Assembly (NCBI GenBank): GCA_947575805.1 | Contig: CANPOY010000010.1 | Coordinates: forward strand, 164-64,163 | DNA length: 64,000 bases | Source: an uncultured Lachnospiraceae bacterium | Lineage (GTDB): Bacteria; Bacillota; Clostridia; Lachnospirales; Lachnospiraceae | Reading direction: 5' to 3' | The notes under the pieces: model-generated | What the model saw: the letters and a program-made list of their open reading frames with translations, nothing else | Database searches by the model: none | What the model was told of the DNA's origin: nothing | Made by a program: the position numbers and the translations under genes | Shown: piece after piece, positions 22,662-32,547 of the stretch | Position numbering within the stretch: position 1 is the first letter of the stretch | Layout of the letters: every line of letters begins with the position of its first letter

Positions 22662-22840
22662 TTATTGTTGATGCTCAATAATCCATTGTAAAATTTCCTT
22701 TTCACCAATATCACCGGATGCCAATGCAAGAATGACATCGCTTAACTCCTTTTGGCTGTAGGACAATTCATATCCGTTTAATACAAGAAAAATTAACATA
22801 AATGGAGTTTTAGTACCTGTTCTTTGCTTAAAATAATCAT
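22662..22840 (-). pseudogene. doc: Fic/Doc toxin with the catalytic core deleted
   Basis: ATG 22840 overlaps the antitoxin stop: MIILSKEQVLKLH, then an out-of-frame jump to MLIFLVLNGYELSYSQKEL...; no HxFxDGNKR motif. Confidence 0.8.
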
Positions 22841-23079
22841 GTTGCAAGAACCTCATATGCTTCCGTATTCTGTTTTATTAACCGGTCAGATATTGCAAAG
22901 ATATCTTCATTACTGGCAATTTTTTCCTTTTCCGCTTTACTGAAATCAATGACCAAATATCTGGGTACATTATTTTTCAGAATAACCGCCGTTCCATGTT
23001 CGTCAACTACTTTGGCTACTTTTGAAAAATTTTGATTTGCTTCTGTAATTGAAATCATTGTGTTTGTATCTATTGTCAT
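22837..23079 (-). CDS. Phd/YefM-family antitoxin
   Basis: ISITEANQNFSKVAKVVDEHGTAVILKNNVPRY. Confidence 0.9.
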   Translation of the reverse strand: MTIDTNTMISITEANQNFSKVAKVVDEHGTAVILKNNVPRYLVIDFSKAEKEKIASNEDIFAISDRLIKQNTEAYEVLAT

Positions 23080-23434
23080 TCTATATGCACCTCACTTCCA
23101 CTTAAATTATATGTAAATTCTAGCTAGAAAACAACCTATTTTCCATTTTGATTGTCGTATAATTAAATTCTGCCCTTGTAAGTTACCCATAAGGACAAAA
23201 ACAAGGGAAAATACATATTGTAAAATTATTGGAAAATCAATATTTTCCTGATATAATGAAGTGGCTTGCATATGCGGCATTTGCTATAGTTACCGATTAT
23301 GCTCAGGAGGTATTAAGCATAGCCCTTTATGATGCATTTACCTCCCTGCCTGAATAATCTGCCGATTTTAGACTGTTCAGCGATAGTTTGTATTGCCGGA
23401 GGCGGCATTGCGGGAAAACAGGAGGGACAAGAAT

Positions 23435-23737: not shown

Positions 23738-24355
23738 ATGAGCAGAGAGAAAAAGACAGGGAAACTCCGGATGATTGTCATAGCCGTTATTATTAGTGCC
23801 ACGTTGGCAATAATCGGACCCATGTGTTACGGGAAATATCAAATCAGCAAAATACCGGAGCTGTCCTTTGCGGAGGTTTTGGAATATACGACAAAGGATA
23901 ACGAGGATGCCTGCATTACTGTGGGGATTGTGAAGGGCGGGCAGGTTTCCTGGAGGGTATATGGAGAAAACGGGAAAGAGCTTCCGGCAGAAGGAAAGCT
24001 GTACCCGATCATTTTTGCCCAAAACAAGTTGGGACTGACTAATATAAAAATTTCTGAACAGGACGGTGACCTTGGAAATTACTGGGACAGGAAGTCAGAC
24101 GATGCGTATTTGGCGGCAGGCACCATTACATCCGATATAACGGATATGCTTTCCTACGCACAAATGCAGCTTTCGGATCATCCATATTTCACCGAATGTC
24201 ACAAGAGTCTGAAATCAATCAATGCGTCTACCAAAGACTATGAGACTATGGGCATCCATCTGGATGAGATCGGGATGGCGTGGATTATAGATGACAAAAG
24301 CGGTATAATATGGCATAATGGTGGTACGGGAAATTTAAAAACTATTACTCCATAG
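23738..24355 (+). pseudogene. Serine hydrolase (beta-lactamase-like) with an in-frame internal deletion and a truncated end
   Basis: N-terminal TM segment, ITVGIV...VYGENG, DAYLAAGTITSDITDML, WHNGGTG; no SxxK nucleophile motif. Confidence 0.65.
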
Positions 24356-24420
24356 CAAGTGCAGTGTGTCCAAAGGACGCTATGGGTAAATCTTAATAAC
24401 ATCATTTTGGAGGTTGGGGA

Positions 24421-24861
24421 ATGGTAATAAAGGCAGAACTCAAAGATATAAGCACTGTGGCAAGTCTGGCAGTGCAGATGTGGGAGGACAATACGGTAGA
24501 GGATCTGATTCAGGAGTTTACGGAAATTCTTTCCAAGGGTAACGCCCGGTTCTTTTTAAAATATGAAAATGACATTCCTGTAGGATTTTCGCAATGCCAG
24601 CTGCGCTCGGACTATGTGGAAGGAACGGAGACGACTCCTGTGGGTTACCTGGAAGGCATTTTTGTCAGGGAAGAATATCGGCATATGGGATATGCGAAAG
24701 AACTGCTGGCTGCATGCGAAGCATGGGCCAGGGATCAGGGCTGCCGGGAGTTTGCCAGCGACTGTGAGCTGGACAATACGGAAAGCTATCATTTTCATAT
24801 GGCCGTGGGATTTACGGAAGCAAACAGGATTATTTGTTTTACTAAAAAAATTCTCAAGTAA
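24421..24861 (+). CDS. aac(6'): Aminoglycoside 6'-N-acetyltransferase-like GNAT
   Basis: QLRSDYVEGT...PVGYLEGIFV...GCREFASDCELDN...FH.AVGFTE..RIICF, typical of the AAC(6')-I group. Confidence 0.75.
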   Translation: MVIKAELKDISTVASLAVQMWEDNTVEDLIQEFTEILSKGNARFFLKYENDIPVGFSQCQLRSDYVEGTETTPVGYLEGIFVREEYRHMGYAKELLAACEAWARDQGCREFASDCELDNTESYHFHMAVGFTEANRIICFTKKILK

Positions 24862-24935
24862 GTATTCTCTTAAAATTCATGGCTCTCTTTCTAAAGCGTC
24901 TATTCAAAGTTTTCCTGTGACAGTTGATTGGCTCG

Positions 24936-24986
24936 GCATAGCATATACATACCAGTTCAGCCTGAACTGGTATATATATGCTATGC
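24936..24986. repeat. Near-perfect 24-bp inverted repeat with a 3-nt loop
   Basis: GCATAGCATATACATACCAGTTCA-gcc-TGAACTGGTATATATATGCTATGC, one mismatch. Confidence 0.9.
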
Positions 24987-24998
24987 TGTTAAAACCAA

Positions 24999-25027
24999 TT
25001 GACAAAAGGACTGGGGGGGGGTAAAAT
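24999..25027 (+). promoter_or_regulatory. sigmaA promoter with a G9 homopolymer in the spacer
   Basis: TTGACA(24999)-aaaggactGGGGGGGGG-TAAAAT(25022); spacer exactly 17 nt. Confidence 0.75.
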
Positions 25028-25252
25028 GCGATAAGAAGCTGCGGACATTGGCTTTGGAGCAAAAAAAGGATAAACATGTTATTCAGGAGGCATACCGCCA
25101 TGAAATGTTTAAACCATCCCACGATCCGGAACCAACGCAAAATAATAAGCTGAATCAGAAAAAAATTCAGGAATTATGCAACCGGCTGTATTCTCTATTC
25201 GTTCTATGTGTGTAAGGACCAAACCCCGAACAGGACGAAAGGAGAGGAGAAA

Positions 25253-25378
25253 ATGTCGGATGGTTTTATCAGGCAAGTGATTCAGGCGGTTATCGAATCA
25301 TTCCCCATAGATCGGGCGAAAAAAACGGATATGTTACGGAGGATCACGGATCCTAAAAAGAAAAAGGGGGAGCAATAA
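25253..25378 (+). CDS. Unannotated 41-aa small protein
   Basis: RBS aaggagaggag; MSDGFIRQVIQAVIESFPIDRAKKTDMLRRITDPKKKKGEQ*; stops 3 nt before the next ATG. Confidence 0.55.
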   Translation: MSDGFIRQVIQAVIESFPIDRAKKTDMLRRITDPKKKKGEQ

Positions 25379-25381
25379 AAT

Positions 25382-27220
25382 ATGTATTGTACTTCTTGTG
25401 GAAAACAAATCGCGGACGATGCCGCATTTTGTCCGCATTGCGGAATGCCTGTATCATCGAGCGATGAACTGGCAGAGCTGGTGGCCGCGGCGCGCATCGG
25501 CGACCAGGACGCCATTGGCGCTTTGTATGAAAAGACTTACAGTAAGGTCTATTACACTGTCAAGTCCATAATCAAGGATGAGGATACGGTGTTTGACATC
25601 GTACAGGACACTTACATAAAAGCGTTCGCCCATCTGAACAGTTTCCAGGGTGACACGAAGTTTTTACCATGGATACGCCGCATTGCCGCCAATACGGCCA
25701 GGGACTGGCTGAAAAAGAAGCGTCCTATGCTGTTTACGGAGCTGAGCTCCGGCGACGAAAAGGATACTCCCGCAGAAGAGCTGTTTCCGGATGAGCGCAG
25801 CGAGAATCTGCCGGACCAGGTCATCGATCAGGAAGAGACAAAGCGCCTGATCCGCGAGATTATCGAGGAGTTGCCGGAGGATCAGCGTGCTGCTATCGGT
25901 ATGTTCTACTATGAGGAAATGTCAGTTAAAGAGATTGCCGCCGCAATGGGGGTCTCCGAGAGCGCAGTTAAGAGTCGGCTGATGTACGGGCGGAACAAAA
26001 TAGAAACGAAGGTCAGGGAACTGGAGAAGCAGGGCACGAAGCTCTACAGCCTGTCTCCTCTTCCGTTCCTGCTGCTGCTTTTCCGCAATCAGAAGGCATA
26101 TGCGGCCGAGGCACCGGACAGCCGGATTCTTCACGCTATCCTTGCTTCGCAGCCCATGGATGGAGCTGCAGCGGCCGGGGCCGCGCAGGGCGTCGGTACG
26201 GCAGGAGCAGGCACCGGGGCAGGGGCAAGTACCGGGGCGGCGGCTGGCAGCCTTGGTGCGCTGAAAATCGGACTGGTCACTCTTGTCGCCGCGGCAGTTG
26301 TAGGCCTTGGCATTTATGGCGGGATGCGGATCGCTTTCCGCTCTGGCGAGTCACAGAATTCTCAGACTATCGAGGGCGTCATTGACCAGAAAGAGTCGGA
26401 GGCATCTGTAGAGCCTTCTGCAGTAGAATCACAACCAACGGAAGAGGACACAAAGGATTCAACAATGGAGGCTTCCCAATCTACGGAAGAAGAGAGCTCG
26501 GAAGGGGAAGAAGAGAGCCTGGAAGCCGAGGACGAGGCAGTTTGTTCATACATTTTCTCGGATATGCCAATAGCGGCATTTGAGATAACGGGATTGGGAA
26601 TTGGTCCGGATGTGGCCGTTCTCGAGGAACCTATCGTTTTTGAGGATGGTTACAGTGAACTTATACCTCTTGTTCCGATGACGCCAGGCGAAAACACATT
26701 TGTACTGTACTGCTTTTCCGGAGGGAATGAGACTGATCAGGAGTACTATGGAATATCACGGGCCAAAATCCATTCCCCGTCGGGAAGCAGTCCCTGGGAA
26801 GCAAATTCATATACGGTTAATGAGATACCTGCTGAGAATGTCCCGGAGGGCTGGGCAGGTATAAGCAAACATCATGGAGAATTTAAGGAACAAGATGCCG
26901 GAAGTCATGAGACCGTGGGTGATGAATTTGTGATGAGCCTGGATGAGCCGGGTAACGGGGAGTTTAAGAGCATAGTTGACCCCTGGCTTCATTATATAAC
27001 ATTTGCGGAAATCTTCCATAGCGACGCACCCGAGCCCGATGCGATACATGTGGTAGAAGTATTAACATTTACGTACGGAGATGAATACAGCGTGGAAGAG
27101 AACGTGGTTTCAGAAGTGGCGGCAGCCTTTGAAGAGCGGGGAGCGACCGTTCGGGAGATTTCCGTGGAAGAGGCTCTTGCAAGGGATCAAATAACAGTAT
27201 CCGAGGAAAATGCGGACTAA
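25382..27220 (+). CDS. Zinc-ribbon / ECF sigma factor / transmembrane / extracellular-domain fusion protein
   Basis: CxxC-X10-CxxC N-terminus; sigma region 2 (DIVQDTYIKAF...WIRRIAANTARDWLKK); region 4 (LPEDQR...KEIAAAMGVSESAVKSRLMYGR); Ala/Gly linker, TM helix, acidic Ser/Glu/Thr linker, ~220-aa domain. Confidence 0.85.
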   Translation: MYCTSCGKQIADDAAFCPHCGMPVSSSDELAELVAAARIGDQDAIGALYEKTYSKVYYTVKSIIKDEDTVFDIVQDTYIKAFAHLNSFQGDTKFLPWIRRIAANTARDWLKKKRPMLFTELSSGDEKDTPAEELFPDERSENLPDQVIDQEETKRLIREIIEELPEDQRAAIGMFYYEEMSVKEIAAAMGVSESAVKSRLMYGRNKIETKVRELEKQGTKLYSLSPLPFLLLLFRNQKAYAAEAPDSRILHAILASQPMDGAAAAGAAQGVGTAGAGTGAGASTGAAAGSLGALKIGLVTLVAAAVVGLGIYGGMRIAFRSGESQNSQTIEGVIDQKESEASVEPSAVESQPTEEDTKDSTMEASQSTEEESSEGEEESLEAEDEAVCSYIFSDMPIAAFEITGLGIGPDVAVLEEPIVFEDGYSELIPLVPMTPGENTFVLYCFSGGNETDQEYYGISRAKIHSPSGSSPWEANSYTVNEIPAENVPEGWAGISKHHGEFKEQDAGSHETVGDEFVMSLDEPGNGEFKSIVDPWLHYITFAEIFHSDAPEPDAIHVVEVLTFTYGDEYSVEENVVSEVAAAFEERGATVREISVEEALARDQITVSEENAD

Positions 27221-27250
27221 GACGGAAAATGTGCAGTTATGGAGGAAAGT

Positions 27251-28192
27251 ATGAGAAATAAGAAAACGCTTCGATCAGGAATATTGATGGTAACAGTAAT
27301 GCTGTTTTTAAGTGGCTGTGGTAATCAGGCAGAGTCGGCAAGTGCAGAGTCGGCAAGTGCAGAGTCGGTGAAGACAGTACAAGAGGAAAGCATAGTGGAA
27401 AGTATGGAGAGTTCAGAAGTTGAAGACAATTCTGCGCCTGTTGAATCGGAAAAGCCGGATGTGACGGCTGAACCTACGCAGACGTCTGAGCCCGCTGAAA
27501 CTGTAGCGCCTGTTGAGACGGAAGAGCCCGTTGAGAAAGAAAAGCCTGCGGACACGAAGAAGCCCGTTGAGAAAGAAAAGCCTGCGGACACGAAGAAGCC
27601 CGTTGAGAAAGAAAAGCCTGCGGACACGAAGAAGTCCGTTGAGAAAGAAAAGCCTGCTGCTACAGACAAACCTGCAAAGCCCGCAGATAACCAGGCTGCC
27701 GATGCACCTTCCGAGCCGGCACAGCCCTCCGAACCTGTTCAGCCTTCCGAGTCAACACAGCCTTCTGTACCCGCAGAATCGGAAAGCAGTGGTTCAGAAC
27801 AGCCACATGAACATAATTGGGTAGCGCATACCACTCAGCGCTGGGTATCTCAAATCGTGACAGTAGTAGACGAGCCGGAACGATATGAGAAAGTAGGTGT
27901 GGCAGAAATATACTGGTATAATACAGGCACATGGGAGGTGACGAGAGACCCTGATCGTTTCACAGAATGGTGCTATGACGAGGTAGGCGGAGCATCCTGT
28001 CCCATGGCAGGATGGCATGAGGGCAATCCTTTGTTCTTAGGATATGACGAAAGCGGACATGCCCAATTTGCAGGAGATCATGTCCTCTATGATACTTATG
28101 ACTATATTCCGGCAGTTACCCACGAGGAGGATCAGGGATATTACGAAACATATGTGGACTACTACTACTGCGACTGCGGCGCAACCAAATAA
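27251..28192 (+). CDS. Lipoprotein with Pro/Lys/Glu tandem repeats and a Tyr/Trp-rich C-terminal domain
   Basis: RBS ggagg, lipobox LSGC, (EKEKPADTKKPV)n, C-terminal HEHNW...CDCGATK. Confidence 0.8.
   Translation: MRNKKTLRSGILMVTVMLFLSGCGNQAESASAESASAESVKTVQEESIVESMESSEVEDNSAPVESEKPDVTAEPTQTSEPAETVAPVETEEPVEKEKPADTKKPVEKEKPADTKKPVEKEKPADTKKSVEKEKPAATDKPAKPADNQAADAPSEPAQPSEPVQPSESTQPSVPAESESSGSEQPHEHNWVAHTTQRWVSQIVTVVDEPERYEKVGVAEIYWYNTGTWEVTRDPDRFTEWCYDEVGGASCPMAGWHEGNPLFLGYDESGHAQFAGDHVLYDTYDYIPAVTHEEDQGYYETYVDYYYCDCGATK
27330..27368 (+). repeat. 15-bp tandem repeat (AESAS)
   Basis: GCAGAGTCGGCAAGT x2.6. Confidence 0.85.
27527..27657 (+). repeat. 36-bp tandem repeat, about 3.6 copies
   Basis: CCCGTTGAGAAAGAAAAGCCTGCGGACACGAAGAAG identical at 27527, 27563 and 27599; partial copy at 27635. 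Confidence 0.95.
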
Positions 28193-28259
28193 CTTAGACG
28201 GAAGCCGTACTTTATTTTTTAGTACGAAAGCCCTTAAAAATAGGAAAAAGGAGAAACAA

Positions 28260-29123
28260 ATGAAAGCAAAACCAATTACAACACTTTTACTGGCACTGGC
28301 CCTGGTGCTTCCCCTCTCCGCCTGCGGCGGAAACAGAGATGACGTACATACCCGTATTGAGGGAGACACGCTCTACCTCTCCGGCAGAGGAACCGTAAAT
28401 CACGAAGATTTCGGCGATTTTAGTCCGGATAATGTAGTGGTTGAGAAAGGAATTACCGGGATTGGTGAAGGAGCATTCCATATGTGCGGAAACATGACCG
28501 AAATTAGTCTGCCTGAAGGTGTGAAGAGCATCGGCGATGGTGCGTTCAGTGCGTGCAGCAGTCTGAAAACGGTCACTCTGCCGGAGAGCGTGAAGAGCAT
28601 CGGCGAGGGTGCATTCCGCGAATGCAGCGGTCTGCTTCTTATCAGCCTGCCCGAAAGTGTGGAGAGTATCGGCCAGGCTGCATTCTACAGGTGCAGCAGC
28701 CTGATGTCTATCACCTTGCCGGAGGGCCTGAAGAGCATCGGCGACGCTGCATTCAACGGATGCAGCAGTCTGACAGCCATTACCCTGCCGGAGGGCGTGA
28801 AAAGCATTGGCGAATATGCGTTCCTGGAATGCAGCAGCCTCACCTCTATCACCTTGCCCGAAGGCGTGGAGAGTATTGGCGCTGGTGCGTTCTATGGATG
28901 CAGCAGCCTGAGAAGTATCACTCTGCCTGACAGCGTGGAGAGTATCGGCGCTGAGGCATTCACATTGTGTGAAAGCCTGACAGAGGTGACACTGGGCACC
29001 GGCTTGACGGAATTTCCCAGCTTTGACGGCGCCTATGCGCTTACACGGATCAAAGCCCCCAGCAGCCTGCAGGAATCGGCCATAAAGTCCGGGATAGATC
29101 TGTCCCTGATTGAATGGTATTAA
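28260..29123 (+). CDS. BspA-type leucine-rich-repeat lipoprotein (LRR_5)
   Basis: RBS aaggag, lipobox LSAC, about seven 23-aa repeats LxxIxLPEGVKSIGxxAFxxCSS. Confidence 0.9.
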   Translation: MKAKPITTLLLALALVLPLSACGGNRDDVHTRIEGDTLYLSGRGTVNHEDFGDFSPDNVVVEKGITGIGEGAFHMCGNMTEISLPEGVKSIGDGAFSACSSLKTVTLPESVKSIGEGAFRECSGLLLISLPESVESIGQAAFYRCSSLMSITLPEGLKSIGDAAFNGCSSLTAITLPEGVKSIGEYAFLECSSLTSITLPEGVESIGAGAFYGCSSLRSITLPDSVESIGAEAFTLCESLTEVTLGTGLTEFPSFDGAYALTRIKAPSSLQESAIKSGIDLSLIEWY

Positions 29124-29203
29124 CAGCAGGGCAGCGCCCAAAACGGAAAGTAATTGTGCTCCTTTCGGATACTGGATATAATGGAGGAAAGGAGGGCTAA
29201 CCG

Positions 29204-29370
29204 ATGGATCCGTTAAAAAAAGAAGATGCGTCAGGGAGTATGGGATTGTCGATCCGGAAAGACGGATGGTGACGGTTTACGGATTTGAAAAGGAGACGGT
29301 GGAGCATTACAGCTTTGGGGAAGCGGTGCCGGCAGGGATTTATGAGGACTTTTCCATAAGGGTGCAGTAG
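29204..29370 (+). pseudogene. Uma2-family endonuclease remnant (start joined to the C-terminus)
   Basis: Strong RBS and MDPLKKED, then out of frame VREYGIVDPERRMVTVYGFEKETVEHYSFGEAVPAGIYEDFSIRVQ*. Confidence 0.65.
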
Positions 29371-29381
29371 AGTAAAATCAT

Positions 29382-29428
29382 AAAAAGTCCTGTAAACGGT
29401 GTAAATATGCTGTTTACAGGACTTTTTT
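29382..29428. terminator. Bidirectional intrinsic terminator
   Basis: AAAAAGTCCTGTAAAC...GTTTACAGGACTTTTT between convergent units. Confidence 0.8.
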
Positions 29429-29458
29429 CTTCGCAGGGGAAAATCTTCTCCGCCTGAT

Positions 29459-30685
29459 TTATCTGCCTGAAACCTGGAAGCGCTGATAAATCGGTTTTCC
29501 AATGGCGGCAATGATTATGCCTGCGGCCAGATAGATTAGCGGGACTGCCTGCCAGGGAGTCAGATAGTGACCAAATATGGAAACCGTGTATTGTCCGAAA
29601 ACATTCCAGGGTGCAAGGAAGGACCAGGGGAGCCAGTTCCAAATCTGTGCAGCCACTCTGTAATGCGTCGGAGCAGTCACAATTAAAGGCGCAATCAACA
29701 GCCCGACTGAAATTGCCAGTGTGGCAATATTACTTTTCAGCAGCTCTGACAATACCATGACAAATACACTTGTGATAACAGCAGCAGCCATCATGTTTCC
29801 ATATGCGATCAATATCGCCTGGCCGCAGGTGACAGGGCTTGAGCTTGGATTGTAAATGAATTGAAAGGTCGCCTGAAATCCCCCTGTACCATACAGGCAT
29901 ACGGCCGATGTAAATTCTGCGGTAAAAAACAGGATGGTAATGACTATGGCAAAGGTGGTCCCCGCTGCTATTTTAGCCCAGTAGAGCCATGTTTTTCCTA
30001 AGGGAGAGGCTAATATAAGCTGGTCTGTTTTTCGGATATGTTCATCCGAAAAGATCCCCGAAAGGCATATGGCAATTAATATCAGCACAAAGAGTCCGGT
30101 GGTCTGATAGCTTGAAAACAGGGCGCGGTATCCGCCGTGTTCTTCATAGACATAGGGCTTCTTTACCTGTTCCTCCTGTTCTCTCCAAAATTCTGTTTCT
30201 CCCTTTGACAGCTTTATGTCTTCCCGCATGGAAGTAAGCCATGCCTGCCTTTTGGCGTACAGCTCGGCTTCATTTGGCTGCCATGAATACATGGCTTCAA
30301 AGGTCTGCATACCCGATGTTTTACGTATGATTTGAAAGATTTCACTGTATGGACGTGCATATTTCCGGTATTCTTCTGTTGCTTGATAAGGGGTTTCGGT
30401 GGTCTGCGGGATTTTTTGATAGGCAGCTATGGTTTCTTCCAAAAGCGCCTGATCAATTTCCCTGCCGCTCAGCTCCAGAGCATATTTTTTGTCTGTTTGA
30501 TACATATTAAAGTTTGTGTCTATGAATTTCCCGTCTATATAATAGTTTCCAAGGAGTGGGGCAAACACGGAAATGACACAGATCAGAATGCCCAGCATAG
30601 AAGAAATCCACACTATTTTTTTACTCAGTAATTTTTTCCATTCGTACCCGAAGGCGGCTCCAAAATTATTCATGGTTTGTCTCAT
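29459..30685 (-). CDS. ABC transporter permease
   Basis: One N-terminal TM segment, large loop, FSDEHIRKTDQLILASPLGK, C-terminal TM bundle. Confidence 0.85.
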   Translation of the reverse strand: MRQTMNNFGAAFGYEWKKLLSKKIVWISSMLGILICVISVFAPLLGNYYIDGKFIDTNFNMYQTDKKYALELSGREIDQALLEETIAAYQKIPQTTETPYQATEEYRKYARPYSEIFQIIRKTSGMQTFEAMYSWQPNEAELYAKRQAWLTSMREDIKLSKGETEFWREQEEQVKKPYVYEEHGGYRALFSSYQTTGLFVLILIAICLSGIFSDEHIRKTDQLILASPLGKTWLYWAKIAAGTTFAIVITILFFTAEFTSAVCLYGTGGFQATFQFIYNPSSSPVTCGQAILIAYGNMMAAAVITSVFVMVLSELLKSNIATLAISVGLLIAPLIVTAPTHYRVAAQIWNWLPWSFLAPWNVFGQYTVSIFGHYLTPWQAVPLIYLAAGIIIAAIGKPIYQRFQVSGR

Positions 30686-31385
30686 TTTTGACCTCCCCGC
30701 TAATATGCTGTAAGTAAAAATCTTCCAGACTGCCCTTGCTTTCGTTCCACTTATCCTGATAAATAAGCTTTCCGGCCTTCATGATTAAAACGGTATCGGC
30801 AATGTGCTCAATATCCGACACAATATGAGTTGACAGCAGCACAATGCTATCCTTGCCCAAAGTCTCCATCAGATTGCGGAAGCGTACTCTTTCCTTTGGA
30901 TCCAGTCCGGCAGTGGGCTCGTCTACTACAAGAAGCTTTGGCTGCCCAAGTAAGGCCTGCGCGATTCCCAGGCGCTGCTTCATGCCGCCGGAATAGGTTT
31001 TTATTTTCTTTTTGGCGGCATCCTGTAAGGATACCAGCTGTAAAAGCTCCGCTGCTCTTTGCTTTGCCTGCGGCTTAGCAAGCCCCTTTAACGCCGCCAT
31101 GTATAAAAGGAAGTCCTGCCCTGTGAATTCGGGATAGTAGCCAAAATCCTGGGGAAGGTATCCCAAAACAGAGCGATAATTTTCTTCACCCACATCCATA
31201 CCGTCAAAAGATATACTGCCGCTTGTAGGCTTTAAAATGCCGCAGAGCATTCTCATCAGAGTTGTTTTTCCGGCGCCGTTTTCACCAAGCAGTCCGTTAA
31301 CGCCCTTTTGAAGCTTTAAGGAAATACGGTCAACCGCAATATGATTTTTATATTGCTTTGATACTCGGTCTATTACAAGTTCCAT
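30666..31385 (-). CDS. ABC transporter ATP-binding subunit
   Basis: GENGAGKTT, YSGGMKQR, VDEPTAGLDP, STHIVSD; real start is ATG 31385. Confidence 0.93.
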   Translation of the reverse strand: MELVIDRVSKQYKNHIAVDRISLKLQKGVNGLLGENGAGKTTLMRMLCGILKPTSGSISFDGMDVGEENYRSVLGYLPQDFGYYPEFTGQDFLLYMAALKGLAKPQAKQRAAELLQLVSLQDAAKKKIKTYSGGMKQRLGIAQALLGQPKLLVVDEPTAGLDPKERVRFRNLMETLGKDSIVLLSTHIVSDIEHIADTVLIMKAGKLIYQDKWNESKGSLEDFYLQHISGEVKNETNHE

Positions 31386-32089
31386 GCTAGTTCCTCCGTT
31401 CCTTTCATTGTTAGATAGATTTCCCGCGCTGCTCTGCCAATCAAAAAGACAGACAAAATGATCCACCAGTGAATGTAAGTAAATTGATATAAAAAATCGG
31501 CAAGTATATGAAGTCCAAAGTTTGTCATACTTACCAGCGCAGCGGCACACATGCAGCCGTAAAATGCTTCCCTGCCGTGAAAACGGCGGGTGAACCACAG
31601 GCTGATCGTTACAGTCAGCAGATAGGGAACCAGCAGGTAGATTCCTGTCTGGAGTAAAGATAGATTGCCGCTGCGGCATAAGGGAATCAGACAGCATATG
31701 ACAAGCCCGTCAAGCAACCCCAGAATACTCATCTTTGCCAACACAACACTTTTTGAGGAAAATCTTGCGGACATTTCAAGCTCCTGCATTCCATATTTTG
31801 CGGAGCGCGTGCTTTCCGTCACAGCCAGCAGGCCAAGAAAGGGTATCAGCGCGGACAGAATCCATAAGGTATTCGGATTCATGTGGTGGGCGCCCATCAG
31901 CGCAGGCACGAGCAATAGCAGGGACAGCGCCAATACCCGTTTTCGGAGATAGGTAATCTGTGCAAAAACAAACTGCCGCATACTGATCTGAGGCTTGGCG
32001 AGAGTTCTTAAAAACCGGGCTTTTTCCTGCCGGTTGGGTGCAGGAAACTCAAAGGCCTTTTTAAGCTTCTGTTTTAAAGCTCTGTTCAT
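31373..32089 (-). CDS. Membrane protein, putative anti-sigma partner
   Basis: Short soluble N-terminus then 5-6 TM segments; overlaps the ECF sigma stop. Confidence 0.7.
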   Translation of the reverse strand: MNRALKQKLKKAFEFPAPNRQEKARFLRTLAKPQISMRQFVFAQITYLRKRVLALSLLLLVPALMGAHHMNPNTLWILSALIPFLGLLAVTESTRSAKYGMQELEMSARFSSKSVVLAKMSILGLLDGLVICCLIPLCRSGNLSLLQTGIYLLVPYLLTVTISLWFTRRFHGREAFYGCMCAAALVSMTNFGLHILADFLYQFTYIHWWIILSVFLIGRAAREIYLTMKGTEELAWNL

Positions 32090-32547
32090 TCCGTAAATCC
32101 CTCCTTTATCAGTTCTTCCTTTAACTGCTTTGATGCCCTTGCCAGTCTGCGGTAAACGGCAAAACGTGATATTCCCGTAATTTTACAAATGGAAGTAACG
32201 GAAATTTCATGTACATACCGCAGAAACAATAATTCCTGATCCTCTGCCGGAAGCCTTGCCATGGCGGCTCTTAAGGCAAGGCTATTAATGATTTCCTCTG
32301 ATGAATCACAGACCGAATTTTCTGCGGTATCTTCCATGCTGTAAACCGGCTTTTTCCGAAATTCATCCACACACAGATTTTTTGCGGTGGCATATAAGTA
32401 TGGCAGTATTTTTCCGCTGTCCAGCTTCAGGTCCCGTCTGTAAAATCGAAGAAAAGTTTCCTGGGTAATATCCTGAGCTAATTGCCTGTCATAAATTTTG
32501 AAACAGCAATAGTGGAAAATCTTGTCGTATTGTTCTTCGAGATCCAT
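32086..32547 (-). CDS. ECF RNA polymerase sigma factor
   Basis: AQDITQETFLRF, YLYATAKNLCVDEFRK, LPAEDQELLFLRY...ISRFAVYRRL. Confidence 0.9.
   Translation of the reverse strand: MDLEEQYDKIFHYCCFKIYDRQLAQDITQETFLRFYRRDLKLDSGKILPYLYATAKNLCVDEFRKKPVYSMEDTAENSVCDSSEEIINSLALRAAMARLPAEDQELLFLRYVHEISVTSICKITGISRFAVYRRLARASKQLKEELIKEGFTE

What the first reader, a model, noticed from the sequence alone, without database searches (positions are those of the whole stretch)
24936..29123. Candidate undescribed system: phase-variable cassette with a membrane-tethered ECF sigma factor and two surface lipoproteins
Seen: one co-oriented run consisting of a palindrome, a promoter with G9 in its spacer, a 41-aa ORF, a Zn-ribbon/ECF-sigma/TM/extracellular fusion (gap 3 nt), a repeat lipoprotein (gap 30 nt) and a BspA-type LRR lipoprotein (gap 67 nt). 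A bidirectional terminator closes the run at ~29400. Known: BspA-type LRR proteins mediate host or cell binding in other bacteria, and homopolymers in promoter spacers act as phase-variation switches. Inference: a stochastic switch gates a one-component transmembrane sigma factor, which could amplify a surface-protein programme. This would combine contingency switching with signal sensing.
Basis: partly seen in the sequence, partly recalled or inferred. Interest (0 to 1): 0.82.

Follow-up and report, generated by a model that had tools for sequence, protein, structure and literature searches.

The report
Variable-promoter membrane sigma factor operon
A mouse-gut Clostridia bacterium has an operon for a membrane-anchored sigma factor, a tiny conserved partner protein and two surface lipoproteins that probably switches itself on through its own promoter, and a second promoter upstream holds a run of G's whose length differs between otherwise identical strains, so expression probably varies between lineages.

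Summary
All the described features are in the sequence at the stated coordinates. Three points change the picture.

1. The 41-aa ORF is a real gene. It sits directly before, and is translationally coupled to, a Zn-ribbon/ECF-sigma/TM/ectodomain fusion in about 35 genomes of Lachnospiraceae and Oscillospiraceae. This pair is the conserved core, not the four-gene cassette.

2. It is an ECF-type motif, TGCAACC-N15-TCGTT. The motif is conserved before the small ORF in 34 loci and before the next secreted-protein gene in 16. It occurs 53 times on the sigma strand and once on the other; shuffles give about 2. This predicts autoregulation and control of neighbouring envelope proteins.

3. The G tract is hypervariable. 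It is G8 or G9 in near-identical mouse-gut strains, in two separate haplotypes and within single studies. It is G7 in two sister species. The flanking hexamers are conserved.

The G-tract promoter originally served a B-box membrane-protein gene, now a 17-codon stub here. The palindrome is best read as the 3' RNA hairpin of the upstream GNAT gene.

No RNA data or raw reads were usable, so operon structure, the effect of tract length and sigma release remain inferred. Verdict: new variant of known kinds, moderately interesting.

The parts
24934..24988 (+). 25-bp-stem hairpin (palindrome). Most likely the 3' RNA hairpin of the upstream GNAT gene (24421-24861), not part of the switch.
   Evidence: -47.3 kcal/mol, z = -7.3; 3 of 26 pairs change on both sides, and several one-sided changes give G-U pairs on the + strand, in three species; in L007 a 74-nt insertion separates it from the -35.
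24999..25027 (+). P1, a sigma-A-type promoter: TTGACA, 17-nt spacer, TAAAAT. The spacer ends in the hypervariable G tract 25013-25021 (G9 here).
   Evidence: 11/12 match; hexamers conserved in L007 and L008; tract is G9, G8 or G7.
25100..25153 (+). 17-codon stub (MKCLNHPTIRNQRKIIS*) of a B-box zinc-finger / multi-TM protein gene that is intact in L008 (2354-2881).
25177..25203 (+). P2, an ECF-type promoter: TGCAACC-N15-TCGTT (-35 TGCAAC, -10 CGTT). Predicted autoregulatory promoter; TSS expected near 25210.
   Evidence: 53 matches on the sigma strand against 1 on the other in 66 loci; shuffles give 1.9 +/- 1.3. The AAC/CGT promoter class is described in PMC5758882.
25253..25378 (+). 41-aa helical-hairpin protein with motif FIRRxIxAxIESFPIDxxKK, translationally coupled to the sigma gene.
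   Evidence: conserved down to about 40% identity in about 32-38 loci. The gap to the sigma gene is 3 nt, or the genes overlap by 4 or 11 nt.
25382..27220 (+). Zn-ribbon / ECF sigma (sigma2 + sigma4) / invariant post-sigma4 segment / Ala-Gly linker / single TM / acidic stalk / 226-aa ectodomain.
27251..28192 (+). Lipoprotein with polymorphic acidic/Pro-Lys repeats and a Cys-containing C-terminal domain that ends in YYCDCG.
28260..29123 (+). BspA-type LRR (LRR_5) lipoprotein with 23-aa (69-nt) repeats.
29230..29370 (+). Remnant of the C-terminus of a Uma2-family endonuclease gene. It lies inside the putative 3' UTR.
   Evidence: Pfam E = 0.029.
29382..29427 (.). Bidirectional terminator-like hairpin: 16-bp perfect stem, 14-nt loop, A-run before and T-run after.

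Best explanation
The locus is an autoregulated ECF sigma operon of a large, uncharacterised Clostridia family.

Its core is a 41-aa cytoplasmic protein and a sigma factor. The sigma carries an N-terminal zinc ribbon and is tied to the membrane by one TM helix, with a variable outside domain. In this species two lipoprotein genes follow, without a promoter or terminator of their own, and are probably co-transcribed.

Two promoters feed the operon:
- P2 (TGCAACC-N15-TCGTT, 25177-25203) is the family-wide ECF-type promoter, most likely read by this sigma itself. That gives positive feedback.
- P1 (24999-25027) is a housekeeping-type promoter left over from a deleted B-box gene. Its spacer is set by a slippage-prone G tract: G9 gives 17 nt, G8 gives 16 nt, G7 gives 15 nt.

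Inferred mechanism: tract length sets the basal supply of the tethered sigma. An outside signal, or proteolysis within the membrane, frees or activates the sigma. The sigma then amplifies its own operon and with it the two surface lipoproteins.

Shown here: the anatomy, family conservation, the promoter motif, and tract polymorphism.
Inferred: who reads P2, the effect of tract length, co-transcription, and the release mechanism.
For: Sigma identity:
- Pfam, NCBIfam and PDB matches to sigma-E and SigW over aa 26-217.
- TM helix at about aa 291-315, kept in all aligned homologs.
- Family size: 870 proteins with E <= 1e-3 among the candidates scored; 112 confirmed stretches in species genomes.

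Small ORF: coupled to the sigma gene in about 32-38 of 67 loci.

P2 motif:
- 53 hits on the sigma strand, 1 on the other, against 1.9 +/- 1.3 in shuffles.
- 34 hits lie 100-300 nt before the sigma start; 16 lie just before the next gene downstream.
- The boxes and their spacing are fixed while the spacer sequence varies.
- It fits the AAC/CGT class of ECF promoters (PMC5758882).
- The window has only one exact copy.

Downstream genes: signal-peptide-like N-termini in 51% against 21% of other genes in the loci (p = 2e-8). Pfam finds OmpA, SLH, Cu_amine_oxidN1 and LRR_5 domains among them.

P1:
- Hexamers are conserved in three species even though the B-box gene was lost before the window lineage and L007 split.
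- No terminator-like site on the + strand between P1 and 29382.

G tract:
- It is the only indel in 5.3 kb among near-identical strains.
- G9 in X4, X7, X32, contig L004 and the window. G8 in 14 runs.
- Both lengths occur in haplotype A (X3, X5 against X4, same study) and in haplotype B (X19 against X7, same study; X8 against X32, same study).
- A nearby A7/A6 indel is haplotype-linked, so it behaves differently from the G tract.
- G7 in L007, L087 and L008.
Against: - No usable RNA data. The 'RNA' contigs are either flat across the region like DNA or come from paralogs. TSSs and co-transcription are therefore unproven.
- Only assembled contigs were available, so heterogeneity within one population was not seen.
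- G8 and G9 give 16- and 17-nt spacers, both workable. The effect may be a modest dimmer rather than ON/OFF.
- The G tract is absent from the rest of the family.
- P2 is assigned to this sigma only by position and the usual logic of ECF autoregulation.
- No anti-sigma domain was detected between sigma4 and the TM helix, so autoinhibition and release by proteolysis rest on analogy.
- The lipoprotein genes have no P2 copy of their own, and their content varies between close relatives.
Confidence: 0.55

Rival explanations
1. Relic promoter. P1 with its G tract is only the decaying promoter of the deleted B-box gene. The tract slips neutrally, and the sigma operon is expressed only from the ECF-type promoter P2. 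There is no adaptive phase variation.
For: - The B-box gene is reduced to a 17-codon stub.
- P2 is conserved across the family, whereas the G tract is confined to this small clade.
- The commonest states (G8 here, G7 in sister species) give sub-optimal spacers of 16 and 15 nt.
- One G run of this length is expected from composition alone.
Against: - Both hexamers stay at consensus in three species, although the deletion predates the split of the window lineage and L007.
- There is no terminator between P1 and P2, so P1 transcripts should read into the sigma operon in any case.
- A neutral G9 tract would be expected to be interrupted over time. Instead it keeps toggling in two haplotypes.
Confidence: 0.3
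2. Tethered but not released. The sigma fusion acts while still anchored (like ToxR or CadC), or the small protein is the real anti-sigma. The outside domain would then be a surface or anchoring module rather than a sensor, and no regulated proteolysis would be involved.
For: - A long flexible Ala/Gly linker of variable length lies between sigma4 and the TM helix.
- The ectodomains are highly variable and in some homologs are BspA LRR repeats like the neighbouring surface proteins (P0016, P0069).
- No anti-sigma domain was detected.
- A conserved cytoplasmic 41-aa partner exists.
Against: The characterised sigma/anti-sigma hybrid IutY is released by regulated proteolysis (PMC8999054). The Gly-rich TM helix preceded by an Ala-rich stretch resembles site-2 protease substrates (own knowledge, not tested).
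Confidence: 0.2
3. Chance neighbours. The two lipoprotein genes are unrelated to the sigma and are transcribed from their own housekeeping promoters.
For: - Orthologs are conserved only in the closest relatives, with other genes inserted between them.
- No P2 copy lies in front of either gene.
Against: - Gaps are only 30 and 67 nt, the genes are co-oriented, and no + strand terminator-like site was found before 29382 (the simple scan allows only 3-8-nt loops).
- No + strand promoter-like match lies in either intergenic gap; the only ones past the first 50 nt of the sigma gene are a 9/12 match inside the lipoprotein gene (27885) and one beyond the LRR gene (29351).
- Across the family, secreted-protein genes are enriched downstream and are often P2-driven.
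- The window's lipoprotein shares its layout and a C-terminal CxCG motif with the family's P2-driven neighbour genes.
Confidence: 0.1

Closest known systems
Sigma/anti-sigma hybrid proteins: IutY of Pseudomonas putida (ECF243) and the ECF52/48/53 groups, e.g. SCO4117 of Streptomyces coelicolor (PMC8999054, PMC5826349)
   Same: An ECF sigma core is fused through a transmembrane segment to an extracytoplasmic domain, giving a one-protein signalling unit with no separate membrane anti-sigma gene. ECF52 also contains a zinc finger.
   Different: - Here the zinc ribbon is N-terminal to sigma2, not between sigma4 and the membrane.
- No recognisable anti-sigma, FecR or ZAS domain is present.
- A conserved 41-aa partner gene precedes the sigma gene.
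- The hosts are gut Clostridia, and the ectodomains are unrelated to those of the known groups.
- Proteolytic release has not been shown here.
Autoregulated ECF promoters of Bacillus subtilis sigma-W/M/X/V (AAC in the -35, CGT in the -10; PMC5758882)
   Same: TGCAAC...CGTT has the same box types and spacing class. It lies before the sigma's own operon and before neighbouring envelope genes.
   Different: Those sigmas are soluble and are held by separate anti-sigma proteins. The motif here is only predicted, and the extended consensus (TCGTTTcATAGGTGTAA) is specific to this family.
Phase variation through a simple-sequence repeat in the promoter spacer: Neisseria meningitidis porA (poly-G) and opc (poly-C), Haemophilus influenzae hif (TA repeats), Mycoplasma hyorhinis vlp (poly-A). 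From own knowledge.
   Same: A homopolymer lies between the -35 and the -10, so slippage changes the spacer length. Tract length differs between otherwise identical strains.
   Different: - The regulated unit here is a sigma factor operon with predicted positive feedback, not a single surface protein gene.
- The host is a commensal Lachnospiraceae.
- Only G7-G9 were seen, and no expression data exist.
BspA-type LRR surface proteins: Tannerella forsythia BspA and Streptococcus HupY/LrrG (NCBIfam NF047961)
   Same: LRR_5 repeats (E = 1.4e-65) behind a secretion signal.
   Different: The protein is short (287 aa) and lipid-anchored. Its score against the HupY model is far below the cut-off (157 against 1250 bits). 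Binding function is untested.

Membership tests
ECF (group 4) sigma-70 family | Sigma2 and sigma4 domains are present, and sigma3 and sigma1.1 are absent. | tested here: met
   Sigma70_r2 covers aa 48-114 and Sigma70_r4_2 covers aa 155-206. TIGR02937 scores 107.6 bits against a cut-off of 42.9. Aa 26-214 align to full-length sigma-E (E = 1e-21).
ECF (group 4) sigma-70 family | An AAC / CGT-type target promoter lies before the sigma's own operon (autoregulation). | tested here: met
   TGCAACC-N15-TCGTT lies at 25177-25203 and at the same relative place in 34 loci. Recognition by this particular sigma was not tested.
Sigma/anti-sigma hybrid (IutY / ECF52-like one-component ECF) | A C-terminal extension with TM helix or helices and an extracytoplasmic domain on the same polypeptide. 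| tested here: met
   One hydrophobic helix at about aa 291-315. It is conserved in 24 homologs. The ectodomain folds with pTM 0.76.
Sigma/anti-sigma hybrid (IutY / ECF52-like one-component ECF) | A recognisable anti-sigma domain (ZAS, RskA or FecR type) between sigma4 and the membrane. | tested here: not met
   No Pfam hit for aa 215-293 at E <= 1 or in the whole protein. An invariant 22-aa segment of unknown type is present instead.
Sigma/anti-sigma hybrid (IutY / ECF52-like one-component ECF) | Activation by regulated intramembrane proteolysis. | not testable with these tools
   This needs protein biochemistry.
SSR-mediated promoter phase variation (porA/opc type) | A homopolymer lies between the -35 and -10 hexamers. 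| tested here: met
   G9 at 25013-25021 fills the 3' end of the 17-nt spacer.
SSR-mediated promoter phase variation (porA/opc type) | Tract length differs among clonal or near-clonal relatives, recurrently. | tested here: met
   G8 and G9 both occur in haplotypes A and B and within single studies. Sister species have G7.
SSR-mediated promoter phase variation (porA/opc type) | Mixed tract lengths within one population, and reversible switching. | not testable with these tools
   Only assembled contigs were offered. Contig breaks near the tract are ambiguous because of the adjacent palindrome.
SSR-mediated promoter phase variation (porA/opc type) | Expression changes with tract length. | not testable with these tools
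   No RNA data for this locus.
BspA-type LRR (Pfam LRR_5) surface protein | LRR_5 repeats together with an export signal. | tested here: met
   LRR_5 E = 1.4e-65. The lipobox LPLSAC follows a basic, hydrophobic N-terminus.

The most novel reading that the evidence does not exclude
A slippage-prone G tract sets the basal level of a membrane-tethered sigma factor that activates its own promoter. Small, heritable changes in spacer length would then be converted by positive feedback into stable ON or OFF lineages for a set of fast-evolving surface lipoproteins in a gut commensal. More broadly, the Zn-ribbon/ECF/TM fusion with its 41-aa partner would be a widespread, unstudied type of one-component envelope signalling system in gut Clostridia, with a predictable regulon marked by TGCAACC-N15-TCGTT.
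Probability: 0.3. Interest if true: 0.8.

Novelty: new variant of a known kind. Interest (0 to 1): 0.6.

Why it matters
Lachnospiraceae and Oscillospiraceae dominate the mammalian gut, yet how they regulate their surface proteins is barely known. This analysis gives three testable handles.

- A large sigma family with a defined domain layout and an obligatory micro-protein partner.
- A sharp promoter motif that predicts the family's regulon from sequence alone.
- A natural length polymorphism in a promoter spacer, seen in public mouse metagenomes. It would be an example of repeat-based contingency switching in a gut Clostridia commensal, acting on a regulator rather than on a single antigen.

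If confirmed, it would link stochastic variation, signal sensing and positive feedback in one small locus.

Tried and rejected
- RNA evidence. Runs labelled RNA gave contigs with flat, DNA-like coverage across genes and spacers, or contigs from 95%-identical paralogs. No conclusion on transcription was possible.
- Raw reads for within-sample tract heterogeneity. None were offered. Contig breaks near the tract (X10, X12, X13, X14, X18) were not used as evidence, because the adjacent palindrome also breaks de Bruijn graphs.
- Rfam. Only a sub-threshold hairpin-like hit (mir-590, 27.7 against 65 bits), so there is no riboswitch or leader RNA.
- Full-length AlphaFold model. Poor (pLDDT 53.8).
- Ectodomain model. 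Good (pTM 0.76), but it has no PDB neighbour (best E = 0.33). There are also no Pfam or PDB sequence hits for the ectodomain, for the C-terminal domain of the first lipoprotein, or for the small ORF.
- Exhaustive phmmer with the 41-aa protein. Only 11 hits at E <= 1e-3, one of them a spurious repetitive ORF. Synteny was far more informative.
- Palindrome as operator of the switch. Rejected. Its distance to the -35 changes by 74 nt in L007, and one-sided changes keep G-U pairs on the + strand.
- A P2-like promoter in front of the two lipoprotein genes. None found.
- Metagenome-wide pattern scan for more tract alleles. One contig only, with G7.
- Literature searches. No paper on this Clostridia family was found. 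I could not assign it to an ECF group.
Full report
**Observation**

- The region 24918-25004 is an imperfect 43-nt inverted repeat. Its core, 24934-24988, folds into a hairpin with a stem of about 25 bp (-47.3 kcal/mol, z = -7.3 against shuffles). It occurs once in the window.
- P1 is TTGACA (24999-25004), a 17-nt spacer and TAAAAT (25022-25027). It is the best sigma-70-type match in 24300-29800, at 11 of 12. The last nine spacer bases are G (25013-25021).
- The ORFs follow with gaps of 3, 30 and 67 nt. They are the 41-aa ORF (25253-25378), the 612-aa fusion (25382-27220), a 313-aa lipoprotein (27251-28192, lipobox LSGC) and a 287-aa lipoprotein (28260-29123, lipobox LSAC).
- Pfam finds Zn_Ribbon_1, Sigma70_r2 and Sigma70_r4_2 in the fusion, and LRR_5 (E = 1.4e-65) in the last gene.
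- A perfect 16-bp inverted repeat flanked by A and T runs lies at 29382-29427.
- The simple scan finds no + strand terminator-like site between P1 and that hairpin.

By composition alone, one G/C run of 8 or more per 64 kb is expected. The features matter because of their conservation and polymorphism, not their mere presence.

**Organism and family**

- The exact sigma protein occurs on mouse-gut metagenome contigs. The nearest genomes are uncultured Acetatifactor MAGs, with 88% (L007) and 85% (L008) identity.
- The sigma belongs to a large family. 870 proteins reach E <= 1e-3 among the candidates scored, and nearly all of the best 120 carry the two sigma domains and most also the zinc ribbon, at lengths of about 340-840 aa. 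112 confirmed stretches were found in species-representative genomes of Lachnospiraceae, Oscillospiraceae and relatives.
- An alignment of 24 members shows a highly conserved N-terminal half:
  - the CxxC...CxxC ribbon;
  - the ECF regions 2 and 4;
  - an almost invariant segment just after region 4, LEKxGTKLYxLxPxPFLLLLxR;
  - an Ala/Gly-rich linker of variable length;
  - a conserved hydrophobic helix (about aa 291-315 here);
  - an acidic stalk and a variable C-terminal domain.
- The sigma core aligns end to end with sigma-E and SigW structures (E = 1e-21) and passes NCBI's ECF superfamily model.
- The ectodomain of this subgroup folds confidently (pTM 0.76) into a beta-sandwich plus an alpha/beta sub-domain. 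It has no PDB neighbour. In other members the ectodomain is different, and in two it contains BspA LRR repeats (P0016, P0069).

**The small ORF is a real, conserved partner**

- tblastn finds the 41-aa protein immediately before the sigma gene in 32 non-redundant loci, down to about 40% identity.
- ORF inspection raises this to about 38 of 67 loci.
- The stop codon lies 3 nt before the sigma ATG, or the two genes overlap by 4 or 11 nt.
- The peptides share helix / SFPID / helix with a charged tail.
- Nothing in Pfam, NCBIfam or the PDB resembles it.
- So the conserved unit is the small ORF plus the sigma.

- About 50-76 nt before the small ORF, nearly all close and mid-distance loci carry TGCAACC-N15-TCGTT. 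More distant loci carry TAAAACC-N16-TCGTC. The two boxes and their distance are fixed, while the spacer sequence drifts.
- Over 66 loci (749 kb) the pattern occurs 53 times on the sigma strand and once on the other. Composition-matched shuffles give 1.9 +/- 1.3.
- 34 hits lie 100-300 nt before the sigma start. 16 lie after the sigma gene, of which at least a dozen sit 17-90 nt before an identified downstream gene; two loci (L040, L047) have tandem copies.
- AAC in the -35 and CGT in the -10 are the hallmarks of ECF promoters, and ECF operons are usually autoregulated (PMC5758882, PMC7826278).
- In the window the motif occurs once, at 25177-25203. It has an A/T-rich stretch upstream, and the RBS of the small ORF lies about 40 nt downstream.
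- I therefore read it as P2, the sigma's own promoter. This assignment is an inference from position.

**What the sigma probably controls**

- Across the family, co-oriented genes directly downstream have signal-peptide or lipobox N-termini in 51% of cases, against 21% for other genes in the same loci (Fisher p = 2e-8; crude predictor).
- Their Pfam domains are envelope-related: OmpA in 9, and Cu_amine_oxidN1, NPCBM, SLH and LRR_5 in 2-3 each.
- In the main branch the P2-driven neighbour encodes three parts: an N-terminal anchor, a long acidic repeat stalk, and a small C-terminal HYxCNCG...HMxQH knuckle.
- The window's first lipoprotein has the same layout and ends in YYCDCG.
- In the window, L007 and L008 the lipoprotein genes have no P2 of their own. 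They would therefore depend on read-through from P1 and P2.
- Their content is fluid. The lipoprotein family has 1, 2 and 5 copies in the window, L007 and L008. Leftover pieces of the sigma gene's 3' end follow some copies. The repeats differ between strains.
- The BspA-type gene has an ortholog only in L007 and, in part, L008.

**Origin of P1 and of the leader**

- In L008 the same promoter (hexamers identical, G7) drives an intact 175-aa gene for a B-box-like zinc finger with several TM helices. P2, the small ORF and the sigma gene follow.
- In the window and in L007 only the first 7-8 codons survive, as a 17-codon ORF at 25100-25153. The sequence then rejoins the L008 alignment just before P2.
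- The 220-nt 'leader' is thus a deletion scar.
- The B-box gene recurs in 6 loci and is P2-driven in L011 and L012, so it belongs to the same regulon.
- P1 has kept consensus hexamers in all three species since the deletion. This argues that it still works, now reading into the sigma operon.

**The G tract is hypervariable**

- Among contigs that encode the identical sigma, the tract is G8 or G9.
- When contigs of 22 public runs were laid on the locus, the tract was the only indel in 5.3 kb among near-identical strains.
- Tally:
  - G9: the window, X4, X7, X32 and ENA contig L004.
  - G8: X1, X2, X3, X5, X6, X8, X9, X10, X11, X12, X15, X16, X19, X33 and three ENA contigs.
- Both lengths occur in the haplotype identical to the window (X3 and X5 against X4, one study). 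Both also occur in a second haplotype defined by six SNPs (X19 against X7, one study; X8 against X32, one study).
- An A7/A6 difference 40 nt away follows haplotype strictly, which serves as an internal control.
- The two sister species have G7, in three assemblies.
- The resulting spacers are 17, 16 and 15 nt.
- This is the signature of a slippage hotspot placed as in porA or opc. With 16 and 17 nt both usable, the effect may be graded. Effects on expression and mixtures within one population could not be examined.

**The palindrome**

- It follows the GNAT gene in all three species.
- Three of 26 pairs changed on both sides, and seven pairs vary on one side only, nearly always to or from a G-U pair on the + strand. 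G-U pairs are tolerated in RNA but not in a DNA operator.
- In L007 a 74-nt insertion moves it away from the -35.
- I assign it to the 3' end of the GNAT transcript, as a stabiliser, an insulator or an atypical terminator without a U tract. It is not part of the switch.

**Mechanism and comparison**

- The closest known systems are sigma/anti-sigma hybrids. These are IutY, which is released by Prc and RseP, and the ECF52, ECF48 and ECF53 groups, which have a zinc finger and TM helices (PMC8999054, PMC5826349).
- This family shares the single-polypeptide, membrane-spanning design. It fails the test for a recognisable anti-sigma domain, has its zinc ribbon at the opposite end, and adds a micro-protein partner.
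- It therefore works like those systems but is not a member of them.
- The tract belongs to the well-known class of promoter-spacer repeats. The unusual points are that it acts on a regulator with predicted positive feedback, and that it occurs in a gut commensal Clostridia.
- Overall this is a new variant of known kinds, with a concrete, testable circuit. Interest is 0.6.

Noticed in passing
window 29230-29370 (+): C-terminal remnant of a Uma2-family endonuclease gene (…EYGIVDPERRMVTVYGFEKETVEHYSF…). It lies between the LRR gene and the terminator. Pfam Uma2 E = 0.029, matching profile positions 123-159 of 172.
   Followed up: partly
window 25100-25153 (+); L008 2354-2881: A 17-codon stub of a B-box zinc-finger / multi-TM protein gene that is intact in the sister species. 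The same gene recurs near the sigma in 6 loci and has the ECF-type promoter in L011 and L012.
   Followed up: partly
window 27329-27368 and 27521-27657: The lipoprotein repeats are polymorphic between strains. The 15-nt unit has one copy fewer in X13 and X16, and the 36-nt unit has one fewer in X16. Every short-read contig breaks in this array.
   Followed up: partly
L007 9100-9225; L008 5021-10390: The lipoprotein family is tandemly amplified: 2 copies in L007 and 5 in L008. Leftover pieces of the sigma gene's 3' end follow some copies, which indicates repeated segmental duplication.
   Followed up: partly
window 29388-29428 and 23328-23374: The terminator hairpin and a 47-nt piece upstream recur with different flanks in contigs of other runs. 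They may be dispersed repeat elements, or sequence shared with other species.
   Followed up: no
window 25061: The A7 run is A6 in runs X7, X8, X19 and X32. This indel follows haplotype strictly, unlike the G tract 40 nt upstream.
   Followed up: yes
window 22662-23079 (-): A Phd/YefM-type antitoxin gene (weak Pfam hit, below cut-off), followed by a short 64-aa ORF that may be a truncated toxin.
   Followed up: no
window 29459-32547 (-): A separate, conventional cluster on the opposite strand: a small ECF-like sigma, a multi-TM protein, an ABC ATPase and an ABC-2 permease.
   Followed up: no
window 27834: The window has C where every laid run that covers the site has A, inside the lipoprotein gene. 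This is either a variant private to the window's strain or an assembly difference.
   Followed up: no
L016, L017, L022, L023, L024, L028, L036 (gene after the sigma): The P2-driven neighbour genes of the main family branch encode an anchor, a long acidic repeat stalk and a conserved C-terminal motif, HYxCNCGxxTTDYxELKxHMxQH..NSYHT. This is an undescribed small Cys/His knuckle.
   Followed up: partly
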